Shown here: positions 1 through 63,622 of the stretch, in pieces
Position numbering within the stretch: the stretch's first letter is position 1
How the letters are laid out: the number at the start of each line of letters is the position of its first letter
Assembly: GCA_000004985.1 (NCBI GenBank)
Contig: GG738906.1
DNA length: 64,000 bases
Direction: 5' to 3' (one strand)
From: Naegleria gruberi
Taxonomy: Eukaryota
Notes under the pieces: model-generated
The model's input: only the letters and a program-made list of their open reading frames with translations
Told to the model about the DNA's origin: nothing
Database searches by the model: none
Made by a program: the position numbers and the translations under genes

Positions 1-259
1 CAAACCCAAACCCAAACCCAAACCCAAAGCCAAACCCAAACCCAAACCCAAACCCAAACCCAAACCCAAACCCAAACCCAAACCCAAACCCAACCCAAAC
101 CCAAACCCAAACCCAAACCCAAACCCAAACCCAAACCCAAACCCAAACCCAAACCCAAACCCAAACCCAAACCCAAACCCAAACCCAAACCCAAACCCAA
201 ACCCAAACCCAAACCCAAACCCAAACCCAAACCCAAACCCAACCCAAACCCAAACCCAA
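1..259 (+). repeat. Telomeric repeat array (CCCAAA)n, about 40 units; the C-rich strand reads 5'->3' at the left end, as expected for a genuine left chromosome terminus. Two variant units (CCCAAAGCC near 27; CCCAACCCAAA near 92 and 240).
   Basis: Direct reading: perfect hexamer periodicity from position 1 to about 259. Confidence 0.95.
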
Positions 260-445
260 AACTAAACCCAAACCCCAACCCAAACCAACCAAAACTAAAC
301 CCAAAACTAAACCCAAAACTAAACCCAAAACTAAACCCAAAACTAAACCCAAAACTAAACCCAAAACTAAACCCAAAACTAAACCCAAAACTAAACCCAA
401 AACTAAAAATAGAATTCTTCTAAACCCAACCTTCAAACCCTAGCC
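260..445 (+). repeat. Telomere-associated variant array: about 10 tandem copies of the 12-mer CCCAAAACTAAA (283-408), flanked by degenerate telomere-like remnants (CCCAACC, CCCTAGCCCAAAA).
   Basis: Direct reading of 12-nt periodicity at 283-408; it grades from the pure hexamer into the variant and then unique AT-rich DNA. Confidence 0.9.
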
Positions 446-983: not shown

Positions 984-2605
984 NNNNNNNNNNNNNNNNN
1001 NNNNNNNNNNNNNNNNNNNNNNNNNNNNNNNNNNNNNNNNNNNNNNNNNNNNNNNNNNNNNNNNNNNNNNNNNNNNNNNNNNNNNNNNNNNNNNNNNNNN
1101 NNNNNNNNNNNNNNNNNNNNNNNNNNNNNNNNNNNNNNNNNNNNNNNNNNNNNNNNNNNNNNNNNNNNNNNNNNNNNNNNNNNNNNNNNNNNNNNNNNNN
1201 NNNNNNNNNNNNNNNNNNNNNNNNNNNNNNNNNNNNNNNNNNNNNNNNNNNNNNNNNNNNNNNNNNNNNNNNNNNNNNNNNNNNNNNNNNNNNNNNNNNN
1301 NNNNNNNNNNNNNNNNNNNNNNNNNNNNNNNNNNNNNNNNNNNNNNNNNNNNNNNNNNNNNNNNNNNNNNNNNNNNNNNNNNNNNNNNNNNNNNNNNNNN
1401 NNNNNNNNNNNNNNNNNNNNNNNNNNNNNNNNNNNNNNNNNNNNNNNNNNNNNNNNNNNNNNNNNNNNNNNNNNNNNNNNNNNNNNNNNNNNNNNNNNNN
1501 NNNNNNNNNNNNNNNNNNNNNNNNNNNNNNNNNNNNNNNNNNNNNNNNNNNNNNNNNNNNNNNNNNNNNNNNNNNNNNNNNNNNNNNNNNNNNNNNNNNN
1601 NNNNNNNNNNNNNNNNNNNNNNNNNNNNNNNNNNNNNNNNNNNNNNNNNNNNNNNNNNNNNNNNNNNNNNNNNNNNNNNNNNNNNNNNNNNNNNNNNNNN
1701 NNNNNNNNNNNNNNNNNNNNNNNNNNNNNNNNNNNNNNNNNNNNNNNNNNNNNNNNNNNNNNNNNNNNNNNNNNNNNNNNNNNNNNNNNNNNNNNNNNNN
1801 NNNNNNNNNNNNNNNNNNNNNNNNNNNNNNNNNNNNNNNNNNNNNNNNNNNNNNNNNNNNNNNNNNNNNNNNNNNNNNNNNNNNNNNNNNNNNNNNNNNN
1901 NNNNNNNNNNNNNNNNNNNNNNNNNNNNNNNNNNNNNNNNNNNNNNNNNNNNNNNNNNNNNNNNNNNNNNNNNNNNNNNNNNNNNNNNNNNNNNNNNNNN
2001 NNNNNNNNNNNNNNNNNNNNNNNNNNNNNNNNNNNNNNNNNNNNNNNNNNNNNNNNNNNNNNNNNNNNNNNNNNNNNNNNNNNNNNNNNNNNNNNNNNNN
2101 NNNNNNNNNNNNNNNNNNNNNNNNNNNNNNNNNNNNNNNNNNNNNNNNNNNNNNNNNNNNNNNNNNNNNNNNNNNNNNNNNNNNNNNNNNNNNNNNNNNN
2201 NNNNNNNNNNNNNNNNNNNNNNNNNNNNNNNNNNNNNNNNNNNNNNNNNNNNNNNNNNNNNNNNNNNNNNNNNNNNNNNNNNNNNNNNNNNNNNNNNNNN
2301 NNNNNNNNNNNNNNNNNNNNNNNNNNNNNNNNNNNNNNNNNNNNNNNNNNNNNNNNNNNNNNNNNNNNNNNNNNNNNNNNNNNNNNNNNNNNNNNNNNNN
2401 NNNNNNNNNNNNNNNNNNNNNNNNNNNNNNNNNNNNNNNNNNNNNNNNNNNNNNNNNNNNNNNNNNNNNNNNNNNNNNNNNNNNNNNNNNNNNNNNNNNN
2501 NNNNNNNNNNNNNNNNNNNNNNNNNNNNNNNNNNNNNNNNNNNNNNNNNNNNNNNNNNNNNNNNNNNNNNNNNNNNNNNNNNNNNNNNNNNNNNNNNNNN
2601 NNNNN
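984..2605. other. Assembly gap (N run of about 1.6 kb). A second 50-nt gap lies at 3618-3667.
   Basis: Runs of N; all ORF-track entries spanning 885-2726 are artefacts of translating N. Confidence 0.99.
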
Positions 2606-2626
2606 TGCATCCAGTAGATAGTACAT

Positions 2627-3617
2627 GGTGATACTTCAAGAGAATGGATGGAAAACTGAAAGGTACAGAAACAACTCCATTTTCACTGAAATTGATATCA
2701 TGATATGTAGACACTCTAATTAGCATATAATATCAATTTCATAAATATTGGTTCAGTAGATGTCGAGTTGTCAACTCTATCATTTTACTATAGAACTTTG
2801 ACATAAAATCAAAGATTATGCTCCAGCTCACTTATTTTATGTGCAATTAGTCTAGAACTGATAACACACATTCTATACACCATGTATATACATCTATACA
2901 AGTTTAGAAACAATTCATGATACTTTAATTCAGTCAATCAGTAAATGTTCAATGTCAAGAGTTATTATATCCAAGTGTACGCTCTATCTCAGCGAAAGTA
3001 CATCCAACCATCATGTAACTTTACCAGATACATTCAATCACACTGATATACATCTGGAATCAATTTCAATGTTTTAGAATTGAATTCAGTATGATAATAA
3101 TAACAATCTGTCAAATTGTCACATTTCAACATATAGAATATACTCCATATCATTCATTTTACAAAATGCCATACAAGTATCAAATATGAATACACTCCTC
3201 TTGATAAGGAGAACAATCTGATAAAGTTTCACATTGATGGCTCAGTATCTTCAAGTCAACTAAGGAACATATAAGGAAATTAATTAGGAAGAATCTTAAT
3301 TTCAAAATTAAATTTTACCATCATATCAAAATCATTGAATAATGAATTATTGATACAAGAATCATATGTTCAATTGTTATATTCATGTCAATAATCAGTG
3401 AAGGTACCATTTCATCAACCTTAGTGTTCACATCTCAATACAGTAAATGTGACTTAAACTTGAAATACAACCTATTTAGATGATATAATGATGATTCTAC
3501 ATAGTAACATGCATGTGAAATTGAATGTTGACACTTTTCATATTGTTATATTTATAGAGATGGTATCCAACAGTCAGTTCACAATATTAAATATTGAAAC
3601 TCATTCTGTATGGTATA
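2627..3617 (+). repeat. Subtelomeric repeat family A, copy 1 (at least 970 bp, truncated by gaps on both sides).
   Basis: 2648-3617 aligns colinearly with 4129-5095 at roughly 80-85 percent identity (e.g. gaaacaactccattttcactgaaattgatatcatgatatgtagacactctaattagcatat at 2648 versus 4129; ...cttagtgttcacatctcaata... near both ends). Confidence 0.85.
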
Positions 3618-3906
3618 NNNNNNNNNNNNNNNNNNNNNNNNNNNNNNNNNNNNNNNNNNNNNNNNNNCCGATTATTGAATATTGATTATTGAATTGGTGA
3701 ATAATCACTCTTGATAATGTTACTTATTCATATTGCATGCAAATCAACCTGATTCAATCTACAAAGGTTGGTAGTTGCACCACTTCGTGGCGAAACTATC
3801 CATCCACGATGAATCAACATATGATTCACTTCCATTCAACTCAATTTGACCGTTATAATCAATAAATCAATGAAATGTTTCTTTATTAGCAATACCTGTT
3901 CAATCT

Positions 3907-4130
3907 AACGAGTAGATTCACGTCCCAAACATTTGGCTTCTCAAAGTCCATATTTCAAAAGTTGATACTGACCTGACCTTTAAATATCTATCAATATAAG
4001 AAATGAAACCATCATATTTACATCATTAATAGATGATAAGAAATATAATCAATGATATGAATCTTCACTAAGTAATCTCTTAAATAACCCAAATAAATCA
4101 ACTCTGAATCCTAACCAAACCCCAAAACCA
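3907..4130 (+). repeat. Subtelomeric repeat family B, copy 1 (about 220 bp), ending in a telomere-like tract CTAACCAAACCCCAAAACC.
   Basis: Aligns with 8107-8320 at about 85 percent identity (aacgagtagattc.cgtcc.aaa.atttg.cttctcaaagtccatatttcaaaagttgatac.gacctgacctttaaatatctatcaa.ataagaaat.aaacc...). Confidence 0.85.
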
Positions 4131-5095
4131 GAAACAACTCCAATTTCACTGAAATTGATATCATGATATGTAGACACTCTAATTAGCATATGGTATCAAT
4201 TTCATGAATATTGGTGCAGTAGATATCGACATGTCAACTCTATCAATTTATTGACATGATATCATAGATTATACTCCAACTCATTCATTTTACATATAAT
4301 CAGCCTAGAGTTGATACCACATAGTCTGTACATCTATTAAATACATCTAGTGTAGTTTGGAAACAGTTCAAACTACTTTTATAAAATTAATCAGTAAATG
4401 TTCAATGTCAACAGTATATATATCCTAGTGAACACTCTATCTCAATGAAAGTACATTCAATCATCCTGTAACTTTACCAGATATGTTAAATTACACTATT
4501 ACACATCTGGTATCAATTTCATAGTGTTAGAATTGAATTCAATATGATAATAATAAAAATTTTTCAAAAAGTCAACTTTCAGTACAAAGATTACACTCCA
4601 TCTCAGTCAATTTACAAAATATCATACAAGTACCAAATATTAATACACTTCCCTTAATAAAGAGAACAATCTGAGAAAGTTGCATATTCATGGCTCAATA
4701 TCTTCAAGTCAACTAAGGAACGTATAAGGTAATCAATAGGGAAGAATCTTATTTTCAAAATTAAATTTTACTATGATACTATATTCACTGAATAATGAAA
4801 TACTTATACAAGAATCACATGTTCAATTGTTATATTCATGTCAGTAATCAGTGAAGGTGACACTTCTTCAACCTTAGTGTACACATCTCAATATGCATAC
4901 TGTCAATTCCACTGAAACTTGAAATATTACCTATCTAGATGATATAATGATGACTCTCCATAGTAACATGTATGTGAAAACAAATATTGACACTTTTCTT
5001 CTTGTTATACTTATAGAGATGGTATCCAACAGAGTCAGATCACAATGTCAAATATTAAAACTAGTTCTATATGATATATATGATGTATAGAAGTG
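4127..5095 (+). repeat. Subtelomeric repeat family A, copy 2, immediately abutting repeat B copy 1.
   Basis: See copy 1; colinear similarity from 4129 to about 5095. Confidence 0.85.
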
Positions 5096-5565
5096 TATCT
5101 GATGATGTCAATTCAGTATGATATACTTTAGTCACAATTACAGGACTTTGTCACTATAGTTTACATTCTATACCAGTCATTTCAACGAGTTATTGATCAG
5201 TTTTACAACCATTATGTTTCTCACACACTCTAGTACATTTTATATTTCAAGAGTGATTTCTGTGAAAGTTATTATCCAAATACCATATATAGTAATATCA
5301 ATAGTCGTTATATACTCAATTCAAGAGTTCTTCTTTTTTTCATATAGATTATTGAATATAGAACACGTCTAGCCTGTTTTCAGACAATAAAAGTCCAGAT
5401 CCCAAATATGGCAAAATGAATTCTTGGCGAGAGGGCAAGTTTTTCTGACAATTACTAAACTTTATTGATTATCTCAATAAATATAGAATATTACACCTTC
5501 GTGTTTTTACCACATGTAGATCAGACTATTATACATCACATTGATAAGTTATAAGATCTGAGCAT

Positions 5566-5943
5566 GTGCGGATCCCAAACCAGAGAGATAATGACAGGTA
5601 CCAAACCCACCTATTGGAAAGTGGATCATCCTTTAGTGATTTTAATAATGGAATTTTCACACCAGATGAATCAGAAGATTTGGAATTATTGGAAATTATC
5701 ATCAAATATTGTTATGGAATTTCATTCGACAATGAAAAAATTTCTGGATTGTTAGACATGGCAATGAAACATGAAATTAAATATTTAGTCGATTATTATT
5801 GTAAGATTAATTTCACGCTCTCCATTCAAAATTACTTTTCCATTGTATCAACATGTGAACAGTATTTGGTTTTCCTGTATTTGAAGGATTTTTCAAAGAA
5901 ATTATTAGATTTGGAGTTCCAACAAGAAGCAACTCTTTACTGA
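5566..5943 (+). CDS. Possible BTB/POZ-like C-terminal fragment ORF (125 aa) adjacent to subtelomeric repeats; may be a gene fragment or pseudogene.
   Basis: ORF-track translation ...LELLEIIIKYCYGISFDNEKISGLLDMAMKHEIKYLVDYYCKINF... resembles the second half of a BTB fold. No N-terminal half was found upstream, where only repeats lie. Confidence 0.2.
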   Translation: MRIPNQRDNDRYQTHLLESGSSFSDFNNGIFTPDESEDLELLEIIIKYCYGISFDNEKISGLLDMAMKHEIKYLVDYYCKINFTLSIQNYFSIVSTCEQYLVFLYLKDFSKKLLDLEFQQEATLY

Positions 5944-6529
5944 TTTGAGTGTTCTTTCTAATTTACCTGAAAAAGTTTGTAATTAAGGTTGGCTTTATGT
6001 AAAGTGGAATGAAATTACAATTTATTACGTTACAAATTTCACTTCAACACTTTTCGATCATCCACAATTTTCTGATTTTCAAATTGTTTTTACAAAATTA
6101 CAACAAAATCTTCATGTTTACAAAGTAAACTCTGAATTCTTTCAAACTCTCTTCTCCTCCAACAATTTCTCTGTGGTCAACTGATACTTGATGATTTATT
6201 TGAAGAAACTGCAGTTTACAAAATTGTAAAAAGCTTTTATACAGGTAGTTTGGAATATTCTCTAGATGATGAAGCCTTCTCACTCTTGATTTTCTCACAA
6301 ATACATGATTCAAGGTTCTCTATCTTCACATTTAAAACATGAAATTCAAATATTTCATCTGATAATTGTTTTAAACTTTTTGGACAATAACATTCTGAAG
6401 AATCATGGCTCTCCACAGTGGTGGACTTTCCTCCGAAAACATCTCTTGTTCTGCTGATAACTTTTTTGATAACTATTACCAACACGTCTATTTGCCAAAT
6501 TTTCAGTTCATGACCAAACATTGATAGAA

Positions 6530-7948
6530 ATGGAATACGAACAATTTGTAAAAAATAAATCAATCTTAATACTCACAGGTTGTCTCCAAAAATTATTTGA
6601 TGAATTTGATGATGGTGATGGTGACAAATTTGAAAAGTTTACAAAAAAAATGACATCACAACCTATCACCGCACCTCTTGATCAACTTCCCGATGAATTG
6701 TTACTTTGTATTGTTACCTTCTCCACCAACAATCCTATTGACATCATTAAATTCTCCCACATTAACAAACGAATGGAGAGAGTATTAAATTCATATCCGA
6801 ACATCTTCCCCCAATTAATTACCTATGATCCTTTGGATCCACTTGACAGAAGTACCTCAAAGCTGATGAATGGATATTTATTTGGTAAATTTTGGGAAAA
6901 TCCACTGAAAAATGGTTTTGCAGTTTTGAAGGAGTTTACTAAGAGAGTGTTTGGACCCAGATCTAAAACATTAAGTAAAAAGAGTACAACTGGGATTAGG
7001 CAACCAGAAAAGTATCTGGGAGTGATATCTGAAATGAAACAGCAGGTAGATTCAGAGCAGAAGCTTGTTGATTGTTTGAAATGGTCAAGAAGAGACCCCA
7101 TTGGTATAATTAAGGCCATTGAATCTCGGGGACGAGCTGTTGAAAGAGCTAACACCTCAAGAATAACACATTTATCGTGTATATTATTCAGTGTAATTGT
7201 ACAGTTTACAATTGGAAAGTTAGCAAGTGTTCCCTCAAATGAAAGATCACTTGAAATGGGTTTATGGTGGCTCCCATATATATTTTGGCCATTAGAAATT
7301 ATACCTATTGTAACAAGTTTGGCGTGTATTGGAGCATCATGTACCAGTGTTGTTCGTGCTTTAAGAATGTTAATTATCAATCCTCAAAAACAGTGGAATG
7401 CTAACTTATATGATGGTATTGTTGTACTTCCATTATTTTATATTGCAACCATCACTGTATTGAGACTTTCAATCATATCGATAAGGACTCTGGTTTATGG
7501 ATCAATTGGCTTGGAGCTATCCTATTTTGAATCAGTGGTGAGTATAGCACTTACTAACAGATACTCGCAATATTTTGGCCTTTCAATGCTGGGATTGGCC
7601 TCTTTTCACAATCTATCTAGTTTGACAGGTACCTATAAACTGTCTGATCCTATCACTGCTTCATTCCTTAGTCTTTCTCTATTCAAATATAGTGGGAGTT
7701 TACTGAGCTTTATTCCACTTTCTCTAATTTCATGTATCATATCTGTTAAGGAGGTTATTTCCAATATCAAATCATCAGACAAGTTGGTATACTCGATACC
7801 TATGGGATTGGGATTGAGCCTGGGCCTACTAAGTTTCGGCCATTTCTCTTACTTGACATTTGCTCCAGCAACCTCTATATTTATGACCCTGTTTATTTCA
7901 ACATTGAAAAGAGAGAAAAAGGAAGCAATTTTGCTAAAGTGTTATTAA
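6530..7948 (+). CDS. F-box-like N-terminus plus polytopic membrane C-terminal domain; hypothetical protein. First ATG at 6530; the track ORF begins at a TTG at 6521.
   Basis: LDQLPDELLLCIVTFSTNNPIDIIKFSHINKRMERVL fits the F-box consensus (LPxEIL...I...L). The C-terminal 250 aa contain multiple hydrophobic helices. GC content and codon choice (ctg, ggc, gcc, ccc) are visibly higher than in neighbouring genes. Confidence 0.6.
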   Translation: MEYEQFVKNKSILILTGCLQKLFDEFDDGDGDKFEKFTKKMTSQPITAPLDQLPDELLLCIVTFSTNNPIDIIKFSHINKRMERVLNSYPNIFPQLITYDPLDPLDRSTSKLMNGYLFGKFWENPLKNGFAVLKEFTKRVFGPRSKTLSKKSTTGIRQPEKYLGVISEMKQQVDSEQKLVDCLKWSRRDPIGIIKAIESRGRAVERANTSRITHLSCILFSVIVQFTIGKLASVPSNERSLEMGLWWLPYIFWPLEIIPIVTSLACIGASCTSVVRALRMLIINPQKQWNANLYDGIVVLPLFYIATITVLRLSIISIRTLVYGSIGLELSYFESVVSIALTNRYSQYFGLSMLGLASFHNLSSLTGTYKLSDPITASFLSLSLFKYSGSLLSFIPLSLISCIISVKEVISNIKSSDKLVYSIPMGLGLSLGLLSFGHFSYLTFAPATSIFMTLFISTLKREKKEAILLKCY

Positions 7949-8106
7949 AATTTAAATAACATGCATCACGATTACAATTATATCTGTGGCTAATCTTGTA
8001 AATAAATGGTAAAAATATTTTACTGCCCTAGTAGAGACAAGTGGACAATTTTCTTTACATTAATCCATCAGTTCCACAGAGAAATAACTCTATAATGATG
8101 ATATCA

Positions 8107-8320
8107 ACGAGTAGATTCTCGTCCGAAAAATTTGACTTCTCAAAGTCCATATTTCAAAAGTTGATACGACCTGACCTTTAAATATCTATCAAAATAAGAA
8201 ATTAAACCTTCAAATTTACATCATTAATAGATCATAAAAATGCAATCAATGATAATCAATCTTCACAAAGTAATACCTTAAATAACCCAAAAAAGTCAAC
8301 TCGAATTCCAAACCAAACCT
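8107..8320 (+). repeat. Subtelomeric repeat family B, copy 2, ending in the telomere-like CCAAACCAAACC.
   Basis: Similarity to 3907-4130. Confidence 0.85.
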
Positions 8321-8530
8321 TTTGAGGTGTTCATTTTTTTTTGACCATTCAAATATTTTCTAGCTCTCTAATTTCAATCTATAACTACTTTACTATTCAA
8401 AAAGATTCAAACATGTGCCCACCAAACAAACCAAGGAGATTCCTAAAATCAAGTCTTTTTTTAAAAATTCATTTAAATTACAGATTTATTTTTACAGAGC
8501 TCGACAGTTGACTATACAAAGTGCCATCAT

Positions 8531-9664
8531 TTAGAAACACTTTCTGTGAACGATACCTGGACCGGCATCCTCATATTCTTCCTTCGTTATCCACATCTGT
8601 TGGAAAGTTGAAAGTGAAGCGAGGATGGATCCACCAATCCAGACTGAGTACTTTCTTTCTGGTGGAGCAACAACCTTAATCTTCATTGAGGCAGGAGCCA
8701 TAGCAGTCAATTCCTTGGTCATTCTTTCAGCAATACCTTCGAACATAGTAGTACCACCAGACAAGACAACGTTACCATACAAGTCCTTTCTGATATCAAT
8801 ATCACATTTACCAATTGAATTGAAAGTAGTTTCATGAACACCAGCAGCTTCCATACCAATGAAGTTTGGTTGGAACAAAACTTCTGGACATCTGAATCTT
8901 TCATTACCAACAGTGATAACATTACCGTCTGGCAATTCGTATGACTTTTCAACTGAGGATGATTCAGCAGCAACCTTCATTTCAGCTTCAAAGTCCAAAG
9001 CAATATAACAGAGCTTTTCCTTAATATCTCTGACAATTTCTCTTTCAGCAGTTGTGTTGAATGAGTAACCTCTTTCCATCAAAATCTTCATCAAGTAATC
9101 AGTCAAGTCACGACCAGCCAAATCCAATCTCAAAATGGCATGTGGCAAGGCATAACCTTCATAAATTGGAACAGTGTGTGAAACACCATCACCAGAGTCC
9201 AAAACAATACCAGTAGTTCTACCAGAAGCATACAAGGACAAGACAGCTTGAATGGCAACATACATTGCTGGAACTGAGAAGGTTTCAAACATAATTTGAG
9301 TCATCTTTTCTCTATTGGCCTTTGGATTCAAAGGAGCTTCAGTCAACAAGACTGGATGTTCTTCTGGAGCAACTCTCAATTCATTGTAGAAAGTGTGATG
9401 CCAGATCTTTTCCATATCGTCCCAATTGGTAACAATACCATGTTCAATTGGATACTTCAAAGTCAAGATACCTCTCTTTGATTGAGCTTCATCACCAACA
9501 TAGGCATCCTTGTTACCCATACCAACCATGATGGACTTTTGCTTTGGTCTACCAATAATTGAAGGGAAGACAGCTCTAGGAGCATCATCACCAGCAAAAC
9601 CAGCTTTACACATACCAGAACCGTTGTCAACAACGAGGGCTTGAACGTCTTCACAGAAGGACAT
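8531..9664 (-). CDS. ACT: Actin (377 aa, single exon).
   Basis: Full-length translation close to conventional actins ([23 protein letters not shown]...[17 protein letters not shown]). ATG at 9664, TAA stop at 8531. Codon usage is GC-biased relative to neighbours, typical of a highly expressed gene. Confidence 0.97.
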
Positions 9665-10203
9665 CTTGAATTATTATTTGTTTTTTTTTGTGTTTGTGAA
9701 TTATGTCACAAGTGATGGTTAAATAATAGTTGTGATGACAGGTTAAATGATTTGTTCAAGTACATCATTCACCCATCAATCCTCATCACTTGACTTCAAT
9801 TTATAATATATAAACTGATAGAGCAAAGTTTCATTCTCAGAGTGGCCTCTGTAAATTTGTTAGTAAATACCTTAATTCCATTCTTGTAGGTATCTTGTAG
9901 GAATTCCAGTTAGCCCTTCAAATAATTTCTCCTCAATCAAACTCAATAAATGGAATAAACACAGCAATCAATACGCAACAACATAATGACCCATTTAGTT
10001 AATAGGCCTAGTTGAAATAGGATGGATATTATCTACAACACTGAAAATAATCTTCTACAACACAATAAATATCTGGCATGAGCTTCACACTAAGGAAAAA
10101 GTCAAAGCAATAATAATGCGAACCAAAAGACCGCCAAAAAAATATCCAACAAAAAATAGAAAACAAATAAAAAAAAGCCTCTTGAAGTAAATGCACTTGT
10201 TTG

Positions 10204-14501: not shown

Positions 14502-14573
14502 GGGGCCAGCGGAGAATTGAACCCCGGACCTCGTGCACCCTAAGCACGCATCATACCACTAGACTACTGGCCC
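14502..14573 (-). tRNA. tRNA-Pro (anticodon AGG).
   Basis: Minus-strand sequence GGGCCAGTAGTCTAGTGGTATGATGCGTGCTTAGGGTGCACGAGGTCCGGGGTTCAATTCTCCGCTGGCCC closely matches eukaryotic tRNA-Pro(AGG) (anticodon loop CTTAGGGTG, T-loop GGTTCAATTCC, 7-bp acceptor stem). No intron. Confidence 0.9.
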
Positions 14574-14858: not shown

Positions 14859-16080
14859 TTACTTGGATGAAAGACTTTCCTTCAAAATGATTGTCTTTAA
14901 ATTTTCCAATACTTTCCTAATATTATTGGTATCAATAGCACAAGTTACTTCGGTAAAAACATCAGCATCCTTGTTTTCACGGAGTGATTTGAATTTTTGT
15001 TCTATGAATTTGATGGCATCAGGAGCAGAATTCTTCTTACCACTATAATCTTTGAAGCAAGTCTCGGAAATATCAACCTTCTTGATCAATTCATTGAAGG
15101 AATCAACCTTGTTAAGGAAGAGCATCACTGGTTTATCATAAAAAACACTACAATTCACCAATTCTTCGAATAATAACATTGATTCATTCATTCTAATGGT
15201 ACTTGGATCTTCTTCCAATACTTGATTGTACTCAACTAGTGATACAACAAAAATCAAGGCTGTTACATTATCGAAAACGTGAATCCACTTCTTTCTCTGA
15301 TTTCTACAATAATTTTTTTGTTAACATTCATTACGAATATCATCATCATATGGCAGATTCATTAAATTAGTATTATTATTATTATTATTTGTATTATTAT
15401 TATCAAATTATTGTGTTCATAAATTATTATAAATTAATATTAAATACAAAAATAATTTCTTACCTTTGTCCACCTACATCAACTAAACGCATACCCAAAC
15501 CACCAAATTCAAATTTAGTTTCATGAACACCAGTAGTTCTCAATCTACAATGAAGAATATCATCAATAGTTGGTACATATTGACTAGAACCAATACGATC
15601 CAAATCATCTAAAAAGTAATTCAAGTTGTCAATAATTTGATAGGTAGAATGTCTTTGATGATAAGCTTGTTGGATCTTTTCATGTTTCCAAACGTATTGA
15701 ATAGATACCAATTTTGTAGAGTCAAAAGCGAGTGTATCAGCAGAAGATGATCGTTTTAAAATTGTTGCAATATGTTCATACAATGCAGAATCTTCCGTTG
15801 TTGTTGTTGTTGTTGTTGTTGTAGATCCTTGTTGTGTTATTGTTTGTGGAGAAATGAAATTCAATTGTTGTGCAGCATCAATAAGAGCTGCCATACCTAA
15901 AACTAAATTATTTTGAATGGTAATTTTGAAACTCATTAATTCTTCCTTGGAATAACCATTTTGATGAAGAATTTTAACTTGTTTAAATAATGTACTTTTA
16001 CCTGACTCTGAAATACCTAAGAGAAGAAGATTTACAGTATTATCAACAGCAAGTGTATTTTGATGGTGATGGTGAGACAT
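14859..16080 (-). CDS. Heterotrimeric G-protein alpha subunit, 2 exons: 16080-15464 and 15303-14859 (intron 15463-15304, 160 nt, GTAAGA...TAG).
   Basis: LLLLGISESGKSTLFKQVKILH (P-loop), DVGGQR|NQRKKWIHVFDNVTALIFVVSL, FLNKVD and TCAIDT motifs. Splice sites were read directly. The N-terminus (MSHHHHQNT...) is about 20 aa shorter than usual for G-alpha. Confidence 0.8.
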
Positions 16081-30715: not shown

Positions 30716-32116
30716 TTAATGAATAGATGGAATTTTAATACTACAGCCAATGAACCATTTGGGAAAGGAAAATACTAAAATCCCAACAATTTTTGGAAAT
30801 GCTAGTAACTGAGGAAACACTTGTCTGTAAAATATTATCATTAATAGAAATGTTAAAAAATTAATTAATTCAAAAGGAGGAAGGAAGAGATTGGATAAGC
30901 TTAAATTCCAATCAGTTACAAAATCAATAAAAATAACACAAAATAGCGCCAGTGTAAACGAATTACGAATCGTTGTAATATTAAATGATCTGAAACATTC
31001 TATCAAGGCAGACCACAAAGACAATCCTGCTGTTAAATACCCTATAAATAATCCAATTGATGTTATTAGTTTCATAACAAAATGCTTTTCTGATTGGATA
31101 GGAATTGAAAACATATTTCTTGTGTGACTGAAAATGGGTATTCCAGTATAGATCCAAATAATCCACCAATAAATAATATAAATACAAAGAGCAACAGCTT
31201 CTATTATGAAAGGAATAGATCCAATAAATAATTGTTTAGGTTTCATAAAATAATTATAAGAAAATGGAACAGTTTGTATGTGTAATTGACAGGGAAAATC
31301 TGATATTGACTGAGATAAATTATTTTCTGGTAAAATATCTATTACTATATTCCTCTTAGGTAAAACAAATTCAAGCTCAATAATTGCATCGATTATTTGG
31401 CTTTCTTTTTGTAAATTGTTTCCCAATAACTGTATCAATACTCTCTTCATTATGCTTGTTAGTGTAACATGGCTAGATGTTAGATGGGAATCAATATGTT
31501 CAGGCAATTTAAGTGAACTAAAGTTGGATTCTAGTCTCTTGGATGGCTTTATCCCTTCCAAGGAATATATTTGAACACATCGACCATCAGATTGCAAACC
31601 ATGAACTAGGAGAATTCCTTCCTTGGGTAATTTACGATTAAAATCTACCTTAATTTTCTCAAATATACAATTTAATTTCCGTAAATATTTTGGAACAGAT
31701 GAACTATTTGTACAATAACCCTTTCGAATGTAAATAAGAAACTCAAAGTTCTCTTGTGATGAATTGAAAAACATCAAGTAATTAAATCTGATTGATAATC
31801 TCAAACAAATTTTAAAATCCAACCTATTTTCGAAAAATATTTTCCTAGTTGATGATTTTAAGAGAAATTCCTTTTCTCTAATTGTACAGTAATTAGATCC
31901 AATATATTCATTACTGTGTACTTGTTTGATGAATTTTTCTTGTATTAATTTTATCAAACAATGATCACGATTGAATCGTTGATTATCCTCATATTTATAA
32001 TTATTGAAAATAGCCTGATATAAACAAATAAATGCTTGAATAATCCTATATATATCGGATACATTTAGAAAGGAACAAATTTCAAACCACTCATCTTCCG
32101 AAAGTCTTTTAATCAT
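30716..32116 (-). CDS. F-box-like N-terminus plus polytopic membrane C-terminal half; hypothetical (466 aa). Same architecture as the 6530-7948 protein.
   Basis: LSEDEWFEICSFLNVSDIYRIIQAF (F-box-like); the C-terminal 170 aa contain several hydrophobic helices (IPFIIEAVALCIYIIYWWIIWIY...). Confidence 0.5.
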   Translation of the reverse strand: MIKRLSEDEWFEICSFLNVSDIYRIIQAFICLYQAIFNNYKYEDNQRFNRDHCLIKLIQEKFIKQVHSNEYIGSNYCTIREKEFLLKSSTRKIFFENRLDFKICLRLSIRFNYLMFFNSSQENFEFLIYIRKGYCTNSSSVPKYLRKLNCIFEKIKVDFNRKLPKEGILLVHGLQSDGRCVQIYSLEGIKPSKRLESNFSSLKLPEHIDSHLTSSHVTLTSIMKRVLIQLLGNNLQKESQIIDAIIELEFVLPKRNIVIDILPENNLSQSISDFPCQLHIQTVPFSYNYFMKPKQLFIGSIPFIIEAVALCIYIIYWWIIWIYTGIPIFSHTRNMFSIPIQSEKHFVMKLITSIGLFIGYLTAGLSLWSALIECFRSFNITTIRNSFTLALFCVIFIDFVTDWNLSLSNLFLPPFELINFLTFLLMIIFYRQVFPQLLAFPKIVGILVFSFPKWFIGCSIKIPSIH

Positions 32117-52816: not shown

Positions 52817-55800
52817 ATGGCTGAAGAAGATTTTATACAATCACTTTCTGTTGGAATTAGAAGAGCAAAATCAGATGAAGCACCCAACATACAAAAATAT
52901 ATTAGTGAGAACAGCTTTCTTCTAACAAAACGTTTCGGAAATTACAATCTAAAAACAATAATTGAGACTGGCTACATTTCTATTGTGGCTGAAGGTGATC
53001 AAGGACAATATCAAGGATTTGCATCATTCGAATTTGAGCCATCAGATACATTAGATGTGGAGAAGTACTTTTCCTATCTTCCTCTGAATGTTCGGAATAC
53101 AATTTGGATTAGACTTGTTCATTTTGAACCCCTCTTTGGAGAGACAGTTTTAATTGAAATGCTAAATTCAATTTTTATTACTTTCTCTGAAGTTGACAAT
53201 ATTTGTTTTCAACCAGTAAGATCAAACGTTCAAAGTGGTATTGATTTCTTCTCTCAATTCTCCTTCTTCAAACAAGAAATTGGATCAGATGTCCTTGTCA
53301 AGTCTGACACTGAAAAATGTATTTTTGTTTGCCACAGAGACAATCTAGGTCGTGGAGTTAAGCGTTTGTCAATAAGACAAGCAGTTGTTGAGGATAATGA
53401 CGATATAATTCCTCTATTATCAAGTTGTGAGAATGTAACCTCCTACAAAACAGAGGGCGAGTACTTTTTGGCTAATCTCTTGTTTGAACAAAATGATTCT
53501 AAAAAGATTCTTCTAGCTACTGATACAGAGAGTGGAGACATAGTAGGTGTCATGTACATTACAACTGAGTTGGATATTAGGCAAATTCTCTCGGATTACA
53601 AGACTTATAATGAAGGAGAACCAATATATGAGGATTTTATAGTTGAAAAACAAATTGGTGACAATATGGTCTACCATTCAAATGCCTTTGAAATTAAGCT
53701 CTTCTACATTCAAGAGGAGTACAAGTTTAGAAGTATTGATTTATTGAGAGCTGCATTCAAGGCATTCCAAGAATCTAAATATTGCATTGTGGGAATCAAA
53801 TTTGAGGACCATTCCAAATCTGAACATCCTCTTTTAAAACAATTCATCTATATTGAACCAACTCAAGAATGTTCTAGCCATTCACTTCATATTCTTTCTC
53901 AAGTATCCATGGTTGCAGACTTTTTCGTTGTAAAGGCCACAGAAACAACACTGGACAAAAATTCATCACCACAAGAGACTATTCTGAGCTTATTGAGACA
54001 GGCAGAATTTCATGAAGAGTTTATTGGTGCAGTAGCCAAAAGTTTTAAAGGAACAAGATATGTAACCATGTTACTGTTTGATAGTAACTCAGCAGTGGAA
54101 GGAAGAAATGAAATTATTGGTATTGCAGTGGTGGACACCCAAGTTAATGAATTTCTGCTTCGTAGACACTTTGATTTTACAGAATACATTGATTATTCAG
54201 CATATAGCTCAAGAGGAACATGTCAAGCAATGATAACACATTTTTATATTGAGCAAAAGTTTTACAGATACTCCAAATTGTTTTTGAAGGAAGTTATGAG
54301 AAAATTAGAAAAACATATTCTCTACTATGGCTGCTACAGAGGTGAAATTCCAAACGATAGTCTTAACAAGGAACTCATTTACTTGAAATCGACCAGACAA
54401 ATAGAGTTTCCAGGAGCCTTAAATGAGAGTAGTAGTGGAAGAAATTCTTCATTATCTGACAATGATTCCGTTATCTCTGGAGCTACTGTTTCTAGCGGAG
54501 GTGGATCGAGAGTTTTAACGAATGTACAATACGATTCTCTCTACTTTATTAATAGAAGATATTTGAGTGAAGAAAAAACTGAAATATTTTCCAGAATTGT
54601 GGTTATAGGTGGTTCAAAAACTGCACTGAGTTTTATTAAGGAACTTTCTGCCAACTCTTCTCTTTTCTTTAACAATATTATTGTCGTATCTCCTGAAGGT
54701 GATGTTACCAAGAGCCCTGAATTTTATGCCGATGATACGGATGAAGAATTCAACAACAGAGAATTGCTTAATATGATCTCTCTACCAAACATTTACTTTG
54801 TGAAAGATAAACTTGAAGATATAGAAAGAGTCAACAAGAGTGTCCTCTTATACGAAAATCAATCCAGCTTCATTACGTATGATATTTTATTATTATGTAC
54901 AAGCAGACAGTACAAGATGAAACCAAAATATTTAGAACTGGTTGGATATCCCAAGAAAGGCATTCTCAATTTGAACCCAAGAGTACCTGTAAATGAAACA
55001 GGAGAAGAAATTGATCTAACCGAATATTTTGAAATGTATTTACATGAAAATGATAGTGAAGAAAGAAGTGATAGTTCTTATATTGTAGTATATGGTTCCT
55101 CCTTAGATGCATTGTGTACCGTTAATACTTTATTGAACAGATTTAATGTTGAGCCATCAAAATTATTACTCATTTTCCCTGATGGAAAGAAATGTATTTT
55201 TAACGAGAATGAAGAAATTGAAGATAGATTGGACCATATTTTAGAAGTGGCCGGCCTAAAATACTTTTCTCAATATACATTGGAAGATTTTGCCTCTGAT
55301 GAAGAGGGAAATCTAGTGAGAATTTACCTCTCACCAAATGAGGAAAAGGAAGAGAAGAAAAAACATGCCAAGATGGTTGAAATTGATTGCTCCTTATTTA
55401 TAAATTGCCACAGTAAGGATGTTGATGACGGTATTTTATCAACTGTAAACAGACAGTCCCTAGTGTTTGACGGTAGATTAATTGTGGATACACAATTCAG
55501 AACTACTGATACAAGTATTTACTCTGCAGGGCCTATGGCCAAGTTTTCAAGAAGGTTTGGAGAATCGAGAATGATGGAAGCTTTCAACTCGTCTGAAGTT
55601 GGATCAAAAGTAGCACAGTCGGTACTTTCAGCTCTTGGAGTAGCTGAAGATCCATTAACAGGATCTATGCCAACATTTGTAAAGAACACATCAATTAGGT
55701 GTGTTCTTCCAGGGGGTGTAAGATTTTTCAGATGTATGAATTCTCAATTCGATGTTGAAAAATGTGTTAAATATCAAACAAATAACGTTTTAGGACCTCG

Positions 55801-56320
55801 TACAATTAATGACATCATAGAGCCTTTTAGATATACAGGATTGTATGTCAACAAACAAACAAATTGTATTGACTGTATTTGTTATCTTGGTCAGGAGCAA
55901 GTTGAAGAAGGAAACTTGGCAAGCTTGGTAGGTTTGCCATTATCCTATTTCAATGATTTAGTGCCAAGGTACAAGGATGGATTTATTTATGATTTCATAG
56001 CATTTTTGAGAGAAAATTGGGTTATGGCCATTCTTTGTCATAAGTTTATTTCTTTCAAGAATGAAACTAAAAAGAAACTTTTAAATGAGGAGGATAATAT
56101 TGGTAATATTAATGAAGTTTGTAATGAAATTGCAGAGCTAATATTGCATGGTGAATCAGAAATTTTCACTGTTGATCCAACCAAAACTATTAAAGTTGAG
56201 AAGGAAGTTACCAGAGATGCCAAAATATTTGTCCAATCTGAGCTGATAGATTTCCTTACTGTACACCAAGAAGTTTTACACTCAATACCAGGAGTTTATT
56301 TTGTACCAAAAAAACAATAG
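52817..56320 (+). CDS. Large (1167 aa) protein with an N-terminal GNAT-like region and a central/C-terminal NAD(P)/FAD Rossmann-like domain; resembles cilia- and flagella-associated protein 61 (CFAP61). Tentative.
   Basis: Single long ORF. IVVIGGSKTALSFIKELS (GxGxxG-like). Overall size and domain order match CFAP61-family proteins; no stronger motif was recognised by eye. Confidence 0.4.
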   Translation: MAEEDFIQSLSVGIRRAKSDEAPNIQKYISENSFLLTKRFGNYNLKTIIETGYISIVAEGDQGQYQGFASFEFEPSDTLDVEKYFSYLPLNVRNTIWIRLVHFEPLFGETVLIEMLNSIFITFSEVDNICFQPVRSNVQSGIDFFSQFSFFKQEIGSDVLVKSDTEKCIFVCHRDNLGRGVKRLSIRQAVVEDNDDIIPLLSSCENVTSYKTEGEYFLANLLFEQNDSKKILLATDTESGDIVGVMYITTELDIRQILSDYKTYNEGEPIYEDFIVEKQIGDNMVYHSNAFEIKLFYIQEEYKFRSIDLLRAAFKAFQESKYCIVGIKFEDHSKSEHPLLKQFIYIEPTQECSSHSLHILSQVSMVADFFVVKATETTLDKNSSPQETILSLLRQAEFHEEFIGAVAKSFKGTRYVTMLLFDSNSAVEGRNEIIGIAVVDTQVNEFLLRRHFDFTEYIDYSAYSSRGTCQAMITHFYIEQKFYRYSKLFLKEVMRKLEKHILYYGCYRGEIPNDSLNKELIYLKSTRQIEFPGALNESSSGRNSSLSDNDSVISGATVSSGGGSRVLTNVQYDSLYFINRRYLSEEKTEIFSRIVVIGGSKTALSFIKELSANSSLFFNNIIVVSPEGDVTKSPEFYADDTDEEFNNRELLNMISLPNIYFVKDKLEDIERVNKSVLLYENQSSFITYDILLLCTSRQYKMKPKYLELVGYPKKGILNLNPRVPVNETGEEIDLTEYFEMYLHENDSEERSDSSYIVVYGSSLDALCTVNTLLNRFNVEPSKLLLIFPDGKKCIFNENEEIEDRLDHILEVAGLKYFSQYTLEDFASDEEGNLVRIYLSPNEEKEEKKKHAKMVEIDCSLFINCHSKDVDDGILSTVNRQSLVFDGRLIVDTQFRTTDTSIYSAGPMAKFSRRFGESRMMEAFNSSEVGSKVAQSVLSALGVAEDPLTGSMPTFVKNTSIRCVLPGGVRFFRCMNSQFDVEKCVKYQTNNVLGPRTINDIIEPFRYTGLYVNKQTNCIDCICYLGQEQVEEGNLASLVGLPLSYFNDLVPRYKDGFIYDFIAFLRENWVMAILCHKFISFKNETKKKLLNEEDNIGNINEVCNEIAELILHGESEIFTVDPTKTIKVEKEVTRDAKIFVQSELIDFLTVHQEVLHSIPGVYFVPKKQ

Positions 56321-62005: not shown

Positions 62006-63622
62006 ATGCCATTATCATCAACATCAGACTCCAGTCCCACTCCTGTGGCAGAACACGATGATGAAGAATTGAACACTGATTCTCTTAAGAAGACTCAAAA
62101 GAAGAATGTAAATACAGTAAAGAAGGTTAAAAATATGTCGGATGGTGCTCTTTCAAAACAACGATTCACTATTGACAAAATTAAAAAGGACAATGATCTC
62201 TTGAGAGAAACAATTGCCAACCTTACACGTAATGTGAATACTAGTGAGAGTGTAGCTCTAGGAAAGAAAATTAACAAACTCAACGATGTTATTTATAATA
62301 TTACTTTAAAAATTCAGGAAGAAAAACGAAAGGTTGAAAATCTAGAGGAGCACTTTAAGGACACTTCAAACAGAATTGAAGAAGCGAGAATAGAAAGATC
62401 TGGAGTAAATGTCTCTAAAGAAAGTAATAGATTAGTTGAAAAACAAATCAAAGTCCTAGAAAATAGACTTGATAAAGCCCTTGTAAAGTTTAATGAGTCA
62501 CTAACTGAGAATAAGGTATTACGTGATCAAATTGAAAACTTAAGAAAAGAAAGAGTAGTATTCGATAGTATTTATAAAAAGATGGAAAAGGAACTCCAAG
62601 AGAAAAAGAAGGAAATGGCTAAAATCATTGAATTATCTAATTCAGCATATGAAGAAAGAGGGCAAGCACTCGAGGAGCAAAAGCAAGTCAAGGATGAACA
62701 CCAAAAAGAAATTGAGAAAATTGAGGAAGAACGAGAACAACTTGATAGACTTTTGAAAGAAGCAGAAAAAGTTACAGAAAAGCTTCAACAAAGAGAATTG
62801 GAAAGAAGAGAGAGGGAAATTCAAGAAGCTGCTGATCTTGACAGAAAGAGAATGCTCAAATCTAGTTGGTCTAATTCAGGAGTCAAGGCCAGAGCAACTG
62901 ATATGAATGAAAAAAGAAAGCAATACGAAGAAAGATTTTCCAAAATTGAAGAAGCAACAGGGAAAAATATCGATGAACTTATTGAACACTTCTCTCAATC
63001 TGAAGATCAAAACTTCTCCCTCTTTACCTATGTAAATGAACTTAACAGTGAAATTGAAAAACTTGAGGAAAATATTGTTGAGATTGAAGAAGAAATTAAG
63101 AAATTCAAAGGAGAGGGAGTCAATTCAGAATCTCAAAGAAAGAAGGTTCTTTCAGATATTCAAGAAAAAATCAATGAAACAAACAGCAAAACTGATCTGT
63201 ACCAAAGAAAGTACGAAAATTCTCTCAAAACATTGGAAATTATTTCAAGAGGTATTGAAACAATATTCAACAAATTGGGATGTGACCCATCGTCTATTTC
63301 AGACATGCTTGGTACAACTGGTGTAACTGAATCAAACATGATGATTTACTTGGGCTTTATTGAACAACGTACTAATGAAATTGTTCAAATGAGTGTCACA
63401 ACAAAGAAAAGTGAAGGTAAGAAGGATGACAATGCTGTTTCAGGACCAAAACATCCGGTTGGATTTACTGAAACCCTCTCCATAGAACCTCCTTCGACAG
63501 CTAATGACGGTCTTTCAGATGATGATGATGATGATGAAGAAGAAAGACCATTTACAAGAGAAGAATTGATGCAAAAGGCAAAGAAAAGTACCCTCAGCAA
63601 GAAACCTAAGAAGAAGAAATAA
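62006..63622 (+). CDS. Coiled-coil protein (538 aa) resembling outer-dynein-arm docking-complex subunits (CCDC63/CCDC114/ODA-DC family); tentative.
   Basis: Continuous heptad-rich sequence. Segments LENRLDKALVKFNESL, NFSLFTYVNELNSEIEKLEE and LGCD....ISDMLG...TESNMMIYLGFIEQRTNE resemble conserved blocks of ODA-DC proteins (recognised from memory, not searched). Confidence 0.4.
   Translation: MPLSSTSDSSPTPVAEHDDEELNTDSLKKTQKKNVNTVKKVKNMSDGALSKQRFTIDKIKKDNDLLRETIANLTRNVNTSESVALGKKINKLNDVIYNITLKIQEEKRKVENLEEHFKDTSNRIEEARIERSGVNVSKESNRLVEKQIKVLENRLDKALVKFNESLTENKVLRDQIENLRKERVVFDSIYKKMEKELQEKKKEMAKIIELSNSAYEERGQALEEQKQVKDEHQKEIEKIEEEREQLDRLLKEAEKVTEKLQQRELERREREIQEAADLDRKRMLKSSWSNSGVKARATDMNEKRKQYEERFSKIEEATGKNIDELIEHFSQSEDQNFSLFTYVNELNSEIEKLEENIVEIEEEIKKFKGEGVNSESQRKKVLSDIQEKINETNSKTDLYQRKYENSLKTLEIISRGIETIFNKLGCDPSSISDMLGTTGVTESNMMIYLGFIEQRTNEIVQMSVTTKKSEGKKDDNAVSGPKHPVGFTETLSIEPPSTANDGLSDDDDDDEEERPFTREELMQKAKKSTLSKKPKKKK

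What the first reader, a model, noticed from the sequence alone, without database searches (positions are those of the whole stretch)
2606..8330. Subtelomeric block built from two repeat families that bracket the first genes
A roughly 970-bp element (A) occurs twice, at 2648-3617 and 4129-5095, at about 80-85 percent identity. A roughly 220-bp element (B) occurs at 3907-4130 and 8107-8320, giving the order A1-gap-B1-A2-[BTB-like fragment and GC-shifted F-box/TM gene]-B2-actin. The A and B copies have diverged, so this is an old duplicated scaffold and not a fresh assembly artefact. The enclosed gene content (a fragmentary ORF plus a compositionally odd gene) is typical of subtelomeric gene-family turnover. 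The two assembly gaps fall exactly in this block, which is a sign of repeat collapse.
Basis: seen in the sequence. Interest (0 to 1): 0.6.

Follow-up and report, generated by a model that had tools for sequence, protein, structure and literature searches.

The report
Duplicated patchwork at Naegleria chromosome end
The first 8 kb next to a telomere of the amoeba Naegleria gruberi is an ordinary chromosome-end patchwork: two old non-coding duplications, two broken BTB gene fragments and one intact lineage-specific gene, ahead of the first housekeeping gene (actin).

Summary
Both repeats exist and are far beyond chance. A is at 2666-3617 and 4129-5078 (82.5% identity over 960 nt). B is at 3907-4121 and 8106-8319 (88.9% over 216 nt). 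The order A1-gap-B1-A2-[BTB relics, F-box/membrane gene]-B2-actin holds.

The window is the end of a 286-kb Naegleria gruberi scaffold, and it starts with (CCCAAA)n, the published candidate telomere of that species.

A and B are non-coding. They have no tRNA or Rfam match and no transposon hallmarks. Neither has another copy in the 64 kb. A also holds an older internal duplication of about 320 nt.

The "BTB fragment" is two relics. One is the frameshifted 3' third of an NHL-BTB family gene with at least five paralogues on other scaffolds. The other is a frameshifted BTB domain. The F-box/membrane gene looks intact, belongs to a small Naegleria-only family, and is not compositionally odd.

My best reading is repeated local segmental duplication and decay in a true subtelomere. 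I could not test whether A and B are genome-wide subtelomeric families, because no Naegleria genome DNA was reachable. A1 and the telomere each sit on a small contig placed only by scaffolding.

This is ordinary biology. Interest is low.

The parts
1..410 (+). Telomere tract: (CCCAAA)n to about 260, then the variant 12-mer CCCAAAACTAAA (one copy at 255, nine in tandem at 300-407)
   Evidence: Sequence. TRF reports period 6, 67.7 copies. Pattern scan gives 79 matches against 5.9 expected. TTTGGG is reported as the candidate N. gruberi telomere in PMC3622300.
411..983 (.). Telomere-adjacent unique non-coding DNA on a 983-bp contig. It is not a recognisable copy of A or B.
   Evidence: blastn finds a self hit only. 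Local alignment to A2 scores 23 against shuffles 17.0 +/- 2.0, maximum 24. Against B it is not significant.
984..2605 (.). Assembly gap (1622 N)
2666..3617 (+). Repeat A, copy 1. It is cut off on the right by the gap and lies on an isolated 1012-bp contig (2606-3617).
   Evidence: 82.5% identity over 960 nt to 4129-5078. Stop codons occur in all six frames; the longest open stretch is 70 codons.
3618..3667 (.). Assembly gap (50 N). It hides the right end of A1.
3668..3906 (.). Unique 239-bp spacer between A1 and B1. It has no similarity to 5079-8105.
3907..4121 (+). Repeat B, copy 1. It abuts A2 with only 7 nt (CCAAAAC, 4122-4128) in between.
   Evidence: 88.9% identity over 216 nt to 8106-8319
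4129..5078 (+). Repeat A, copy 2. It contains an older internal direct duplication (4131-4302 resembles 4447-4624).
   Evidence: Internal duplication scores 30 against shuffles 13.7 +/- 2.1, 0 of 300 reaching it. A1 3039-3163 against A2 4175-4294 scores 33 against 13.8 +/- 2.0.
5079..5610 (.). Unique non-coding DNA between A2 and the first BTB relic
   Evidence: Self hit only in the whole window. No protein hits for its open stretches.
5611..5977 (+). BTB relic 1. It is a 5'-truncated, frameshifted copy of the last ~120 codons of an NHL-BTB family gene.
   Evidence: tblastn places P0009 residues 276-397 here in three different frames, with amino-acid identity over ~85 residues. The family has P0009, P0011 and P0012 at 90% identity or more, and P0010 and P0013 at about 56%. 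P0012 has NHL repeats plus BTB.
6040..6450 (+). BTB relic 2. It is a BTB domain broken by a frameshift near 6180 and by stop codons, and no gene model covers it.
   Evidence: Frame analysis. The repaired translation hits Pfam BTB PF00651 at 21.0 bits (cut-off 20.5), E = 4e-4.
6650..7948 (+). Intact gene NAEGRDRAFT_73574, encoding an F-box-like N-terminus followed by a multi-pass membrane region. It belongs to a Naegleria-restricted family.
   Evidence: 100% match. Homologues include N. gruberi 69101 at 29%, N. lovaniensis C9374_003567, and metagenome contigs at 46-48%. Conserved motifs are GLWWxPY and SYLTFAP. Pfam F-box-like is found in the paralogues.
8106..8319 (+). Repeat B, copy 2. It lies in the convergent intergenic region between the F-box/TM gene and actin.
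8531..9664 (-). Actin gene, intronless. It is the first conserved housekeeping gene and marks the inner edge of the block.
   Evidence: ORF of 377 aa. Pfam Actin on the identical product.

Best explanation
This is the subtelomeric buffer zone at one end of a Naegleria gruberi chromosome. It is about 8 kb of mostly non-functional DNA built by successive local duplications and by import of gene fragments, followed by decay.

The inferred order of events is:
1. An old duplication of about 320 nt inside the ancestor of A.
2. A later duplication of a segment that begins with A and ends with B. This placed B1 head-to-tail against A2. The interior of one unit was then lost or replaced.
3. Capture of the 3' third of an NHL-BTB family gene and of a second BTB domain. 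Both are now frameshifted pseudogenes.
4. Retention of one intact, Naegleria-specific F-box/membrane-protein gene.

A and B have no detectable sequence-specific function. They are by-products of unequal exchange or break repair, which is common at chromosome ends.

Shown directly: the repeats, their divergence, their non-coding nature, the pseudogenes, the intact gene and the telomere tract. Inferred: the order of events and the recombination mechanism.
For: - Organism and telomere.
- A and B each occur twice, in the same order and orientation, with B1 touching A2 and only 7 nt between them. This is the signature of a head-to-tail duplication junction.
- A holds a still older internal duplication. 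Local duplication has therefore happened here more than once.
- No other A or B copy exists in the remaining 56 kb.
- A and B have stop codons in all frames and no Rfam or tRNA match. No significant inverted repeats or target-site duplications were seen (and reading of the flanks).
- BTB relic 1 matches a multi-copy NHL-BTB family in three different frames. BTB relic 2 needs a frameshift repair before it reaches the Pfam BTB cut-off.
- The F-box/TM gene is conserved in other Naegleria.
- Both gaps of the window lie in the first 3.7 kb. Identical or near-identical gene pieces sit on unplaced scaffolds of 2-5 kb. Both facts fit a hard-to-assemble, duplicated chromosome end.
Against: - The spacer of unit 1 (3668-3906) has no detectable similarity to the interior of unit 2. 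A simple tandem duplication therefore needs an extra deletion or replacement step.
- A (16% mismatches) and B (10%) differ in divergence. They may not share one duplication event.
- A1 and the telomere are each on small contigs joined only by scaffolding. The A1-B1 adjacency and the distance to the telomere are not sequence-proven.
- The genome-wide copy number of A and B is unknown.
Confidence: 0.55

Rival explanations
1. A and B are dispersed subtelomere-specific repeat families, shared by many or all N. gruberi chromosome ends in a fixed order. They would be analogous to yeast X/Y' elements or Plasmodium TAREs and would be kept similar by exchange between ends.
For: - The block lies next to a real telomere tract.
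- Parts of the block exist elsewhere in the assembly. A 100% identical 176-aa piece of the F-box/TM gene is on a 4664-bp scaffold. A near-identical BTB gene end is on a 2086-bp scaffold.
- Both gaps fall in the block.
Against: - Only two copies of each were seen, and they are 10-18% diverged. That is not what frequent exchange between ends would give.
- The DNA that actually touches the telomere (411-983) is not related to A or B.
- The small scaffolds may be the other haplotype of this same locus and not other chromosome ends.
- A six-frame protein search with A, B and their flanks found no gene model overlapping another copy. This is a weak test.
Confidence: 0.25
2. A and/or B are remnants of a mobile element. 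For example, A could be a long terminal repeat pair around a mostly deleted interior, or B could be a short non-autonomous element inserted twice.
For: - A1 and A2 are direct repeats of at least 950 nt, about 500 nt plus a gap of uncertain size apart.
- B is a compact 215-nt unit with sharp ends, found at two unrelated sites.
- A is more CpG-depleted (observed/expected 0.11-0.16) than the window as a whole (0.38). In Naegleria, 5mC is reported to be confined to transposons (PMC12695648).
Against: - The ends lack TG...CA termini and terminal inverted repeats. There are no target-site duplications at either B copy, no poly-A tail, and no polypurine tract or primer-binding-site-like sequence beside A2.
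- No reverse transcriptase, integrase or transposase relic appears in any frame.
- No further copies occur in 64 kb.
- There is no tRNA-like or Rfam match.
Confidence: 0.13
3. The apparent duplication is partly an assembly or scaffolding artefact. The isolated 1012-bp A1 contig, and possibly the 983-bp telomere contig, belong to another locus or haplotype and were placed here by misleading mate pairs.
For: - A1 is bounded by both gaps, and the telomere contig is joined only across a 1622-N gap.
- Redundant small scaffolds of this region exist in the assembly.
Against: - B1, A2 and B2 lie on one uninterrupted contig, so the B duplication and the B1-A2 junction are sequence-proven.
- At 82.5% identity, A1 is too diverged from A2 to be a second haplotype or a misjoined read set. 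A second A copy therefore exists somewhere in the genome in any case.
Confidence: 0.07

Closest known systems
Subtelomeric segmental duplications and pseudogene patchworks, as in human and yeast chromosome ends (own knowledge of the field)
   Same: - A gene-poor zone directly internal to the telomere repeats.
- Nested direct duplications of different ages.
- Truncated and frameshifted copies of multi-copy gene families.
- One lineage-specific gene.
- Assembly gaps and unplaced redundant scaffolds.
   Different: - The block is very short (about 8 kb before a housekeeping actin gene).
- Sharing with other chromosome ends is not shown.
- Only two copies of each repeat were seen.
Saccharomyces cerevisiae X and Y' telomere-associated elements (PMC11042809 was listed; the details are own knowledge)
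   Same: These are non-telomeric repeat elements lying between the telomere repeats and the first unique genes, in a fixed order.
   Different: - X and Y' occur at all or many ends at high identity. Y' encodes a helicase and X holds an ARS and binding sites.
- A and B are non-coding and 10-18% diverged.
- A and B do not touch the telomere tract, and their presence at other ends is untested.
LTR retrotransposon or solo-LTR remnants
   Same: Two direct repeats of about 1 kb lie close together (A1, A2).
   Different: There are no TG...CA ends, no target-site duplication, no primer-binding site or polypurine tract, and no gag/pol relic.
Interstitial telomeric sequence marking an ancient chromosome end
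   Same: The B1/A2 junction reads AACCAAACCCCAAAACC, which resembles the C-rich telomere strand.
   Different: - Comparable A/C runs occur inside ordinary genes at 15493, 25663 and 42985.
- Alignment of the true telomere junction to the B ends is not significant (96 of 500 and 18 of 500 shuffles reach the score).

Membership tests
Subtelomeric region of a eukaryotic chromosome | Directly adjoins a terminal tract of the species' telomere repeat, with the C-rich strand 5'->3' at a left end | tested here: met
   (CCCAAA)n at 1-260 plus variant repeats to 410. TTTGGG is reported for N. gruberi (PMC3622300). Caveat: the link crosses a 1622-N scaffold gap.
Subtelomeric region of a eukaryotic chromosome | Gene-poor, with duplicated segments and pseudogenes of multi-copy families, compared with the chromosome interior | tested here: met
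   The block has one intact gene in 8.5 kb, two BTB pseudogene relics and two duplicated non-coding elements. The next 55 kb is densely packed with long ORFs.
Telomere-associated repeat family (X/Y'- or TARE-like) | Copies present at several or all chromosome ends | not testable with these tools
   - No N. gruberi genome DNA was reachable.
- Exact-word scans of the metagenome and prokaryote collections were empty.
- The six-frame protein search was empty.
Telomere-associated repeat family (X/Y'- or TARE-like) | Fixed position relative to the telomere tract (the element abuts or closely follows the telomere repeats) | tested here: not met
   The 573 bp that follow the telomere tract are unrelated to A and B. 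A1 begins at least 2.2 kb from the tract.
LTR retrotransposon | Direct repeats with TG...CA ends flanked by a target-site duplication, with a primer-binding site, polypurine tract and gag/pol between them | tested here: not met
   - A starts with CAGAAAC.
- No purine tract lies upstream of A2.
- No coding relic is present.
- The right end of A1 is hidden by the gap, so the test is incomplete on that side.
DNA transposon, MITE or SINE (for B) | Terminal inverted repeats or a tRNA-like head, a poly-A or simple-repeat tail, and target-site duplications | tested here: not met
   - No inverted repeat lies within or around B.
- No tRNA or Rfam hit was found.
- The flanks caatct/ccaaaac (B1) and gatatc/ttttga (B2) show no duplication.
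BTB/POZ domain gene (for 5611-6450) | Significant match to the BTB profile and an uninterrupted reading frame | tested here: not met
   - Homology is present. Relic 1 matches the NHL-BTB paralogues. Relic 2 scores 21 bits on PF00651 after frameshift repair.
- Both frames are broken, and relic 1 lacks the first ~275 codons of the partial model P0009. Both are pseudogenes.

The most novel reading that the evidence does not exclude
A and B are the first telomere-associated repeat elements described in a heterolobosean. They would be present in a fixed order at most N. gruberi chromosome ends, together with the variant 12-mer CCCAAAACTAAA array. The unplaced 2-5-kb scaffolds carrying identical gene pieces would then be other chromosome ends kept alike by recombination between ends.
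Probability: 0.2. Interest if true: 0.4.

Novelty: new member of a known kind. Interest (0 to 1): 0.2.

Why it matters
Chromosome ends of Naegleria, and of Heterolobosea in general, seem undescribed. My searches of the paper library found only the bare TTTGGG repeat. This window gives one worked example:

- a telomere tract with a variant 12-mer array;
- a very short (about 8 kb) duplicated, decaying buffer zone;
- a housekeeping actin gene immediately after it.

This is useful for annotating long-read Naegleria assemblies and for flagging the pseudogenes and redundant scaffolds of the 2010 assembly. It does not change any general concept.

Tried and rejected
1. The telomere-adjacent 410-983 as a third, diverged A copy. 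blastn gave weak hits, but dinucleotide shuffles reach the score. Rejected.
2. The telomere-like end of B and the CCAAAAC filler as an interstitial telomere relic. Alignment to the true junction is not significant, and similar A/C runs occur in ordinary genes. Rejected as evidence.
3. Homology between the spacer 3668-3906 and the interior of unit 2, or between B and A. None was found.
4. Coding potential in A, B and the spacers. There are stops in all frames, and a concatenated six-frame query gave no hit in 5.8 billion proteins.
5. RNA genes. Rfam gave only two sub-threshold miRNA-model matches outside A and B. The only tRNA is at 14502.
6. Fetching other N. gruberi scaffolds through exact-protein look-ups (HisRS, P0001, P0002, P0009, P0010 and a longer F-box ORF). 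None is on record.
7. Exact-word scans for A and B cores in the metagenome and prokaryote genome collections. These found nothing.
8. 'Compositionally odd' F-box/TM gene. Its GC is within 1.2 SD of the other ORFs. Rejected.
9. Paralogy between the F-box/TM gene and the similar-looking ORF 30716-32116. BLASTP gave E = 0.72. Not supported.
10. Using the Logan actin contig to define transcript ends near B2. The contig is only 95% identical in DNA, so it comes from a paralogue or another strain.
Full report
**Where the window comes from.** The ORF at 6650-7945 is 100% identical over its full length to NAEGRDRAFT_73574 of Naegleria gruberi, on a 286,411-bp scaffold. The window begins with about 260 bases of CCCAAA repeats. 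These are followed by ten copies of a variant 12-mer, CCCAAAACTAAA, nine of them in tandem at 300-407. TTTGGG was proposed as the telomere repeat of N. gruberi from the genome sequence (PMC3622300). The finding therefore lies at a genuine chromosome end. One reservation applies: the telomere sits on a 983-bp contig joined to the rest only across a 1622-N scaffold gap.

**The observation.**
- blastn of the window against itself finds two significant repeat pairs in the block. The only other two pairs in the 64 kb are short (about 50 nt, at 15353/23175 and 49643/50612). Neither A nor B has a further copy.
- A1 2666-3617 matches A2 4129-5078 at 82.5% identity over 960 columns. Ungapped, this is 84.0% over 942 bases, with K2P distance 0.18.
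- B1 3907-4121 matches B2 8106-8319 at 88.9% over 216 columns. Ungapped, this is 90.1%, with K2P 0.11.
- A homology begins abruptly at CAGAAACAACTCC in both copies. It runs until A1 meets the 50-N gap, so the right end of A is unknown.
- B1 is separated from A2 by only seven bases.

**What A and B are not.**
- All six frames of A1 and A2 carry 19-47 stop codons, and the longest open stretch is 70 codons.
- A concatenation of every open stretch of 30 codons or more from A, B, the spacers and the flanks found nothing among 5.8 billion proteins.
- Rfam gave only two sub-threshold matches, both outside A and B. The only tRNA in the window is at 14502.
- I found no terminal inverted repeats, no TG...CA ends, no target-site duplications at either B copy, and no poly-A tail. 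Nothing resembling a primer-binding site or polypurine tract lies beside A2.
- B is not related to A, and neither is related to the DNA that actually touches the telomere.
- The A/C-rich, telomere-like sequence at the B1/A2 junction looked suggestive but fails two controls. Alignment to the real telomere junction is matched by 96 of 500 and 18 of 500 shuffles. Similar runs occur inside ordinary genes.

**Internal structure of A.** The first ~170 nt of A resemble a segment about 316-322 nt further on. A2 4131-4302 against 4447-4624 scores 30, compared with 13.7 +/- 2.1 in shuffles. A1 3039-3163 against A2 4175-4294 scores 33, compared with 13.8 +/- 2.0. None of 300 shuffles reaches either score. 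A therefore carries a duplication older than the A1/A2 split.

**The enclosed genes.** The "BTB-like fragment" is two separate relics.
- Relic 1 (5611-5977) matches residues 276-397 of the N. gruberi protein P0009. It does so in three different reading frames, with amino-acid identity over about 85 residues.
- P0009 belongs to a family of at least five N. gruberi proteins on five different scaffolds. The full-length member P0012 has NHL repeats followed by a BTB domain.
- The window copy lacks everything upstream of residue 276 of P0009, which is itself cut off at its 5' end. It carries at least two frameshifts.
- Relic 2 (about 6040-6450) is a different BTB domain, broken by a frameshift near 6180 and by stop codons. 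After repair it just passes the Pfam BTB cut-off, at 21.0 bits and E = 4e-4.
- The F-box/TM gene appears intact. An exhaustive HMMER search finds a 29%-identical N. gruberi paralogue, an N. lovaniensis homologue, and 46-48%-identical fragments on metagenome contigs.
- That family shares the invariant motifs GLWWxPY and SYLTFAP. Its paralogues pass the Pfam F-box-like threshold.
- The gene's GC content is 36.3%, only 1.2 SD above the mean of 24 ORFs in the window. It is not compositionally odd.

**Copies elsewhere in the assembly.**
- A 176-residue partial protein, NAEGRDRAFT_76832, is 100% identical to the start of the F-box/TM protein. It lies on an unplaced 4664-bp scaffold.
- P0009 lies on a 2086-bp scaffold.
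- These may be the second haplotype of this end, redundant assembly, or other chromosome ends. I could not fetch their DNA.
- Both gaps of the window lie in the first 3.7 kb. Together these facts show the end was hard to assemble. They do not show collapse.

**Interpretation.** The simplest account is repeated local duplication and decay in a true subtelomere.
- An old ~320-nt duplication arose inside A.
- Later, a segment starting with A and ending with B was duplicated, which explains the head-to-tail B1|A2 junction.
- Gene fragments were then imported from dispersed families.

Points against a clean tandem duplication:
- The spacer of unit 1 has no similarity to the interior of unit 2.
- A and B have different divergence.
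- A1 sits on a 1012-bp contig placed only by scaffolding.

It remains possible but untested, and I give it about 0.25. A mobile-element origin has no structural support (about 0.13). A pure scaffolding artefact cannot explain the B pair or the B1-A2 junction, which are on one contig (about 0.07).

**Verdict.** This is an ordinary subtelomeric patchwork in a species whose chromosome ends I did not find described in the paper library. It is a new member of a known kind and of low interest.

Noticed in passing
window 255-407: Ten copies of a variant 12-mer, CCCAAAACTAAA (nine in tandem), lie between the canonical CCCAAA telomere repeats and unique DNA. This could be a variant-repeat zone typical of N. 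gruberi chromosome ends.
   Followed up: partly
window 4131-4302 vs 4447-4624; 3039-3163 vs 4175-4294: Repeat A contains an older internal direct duplication with a period of about 316-322 nt at about 61-65% identity. No shuffle of 300 reaches the score.
   Followed up: yes
window 6650-7948 (+): NAEGRDRAFT_73574 belongs to a small family that combines an F-box-like N-terminus with a multi-pass membrane region (invariant GLWWxPY and SYLTFAP motifs). Named members are all Naegleria; the others are unnamed metagenome contigs. An F-box fused to a polytopic membrane domain is an unusual architecture.
   Followed up: partly
window 30716-32116 (-): This second ORF also has an F-box-like N-terminus (EDEWFEICSFLNVSDIYRI) and a hydrophobic C-terminal half. 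It shows no significant similarity to the first (BLASTP E = 0.72) and has no Pfam hit.
   Followed up: partly
L001 (Logan SRR3922091_48062) vs window 8529-9689: This contig encodes exactly the same 377-aa actin but is only 95.0% identical in DNA (56 mismatches in 1162 nt), and its untranslated ends do not align. It is either a paralogous actin under strong purifying selection or another Naegleria strain.
   Followed up: partly
unplaced N. gruberi scaffolds of 4664 bp (NAEGRDRAFT_76832) and 2086 bp (XP_002668130): These tiny scaffolds carry gene pieces identical or nearly identical to window 6650-7177 and 5611-5870. They may be a second haplotype or other chromosome ends, and they might fill the two gaps.
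   Followed up: partly
window 2666-3617 and 4129-5078: CpG observed/expected is 0.16 and 0.11 in A, against 0.38 for the rest of the window. This would fit long-term cytosine methylation of silent repeats, which is reported for Naegleria transposons (PMC12695648).
   Followed up: no
window 52817-56320 and 62006-63622: Judged by eye from the translations, these long intronless ORFs look like the flagellar proteins CFAP61 and an outer-dynein-arm docking protein (no search was run on them). Ordinary conserved genes begin right after the 8-kb block.
   Followed up: no
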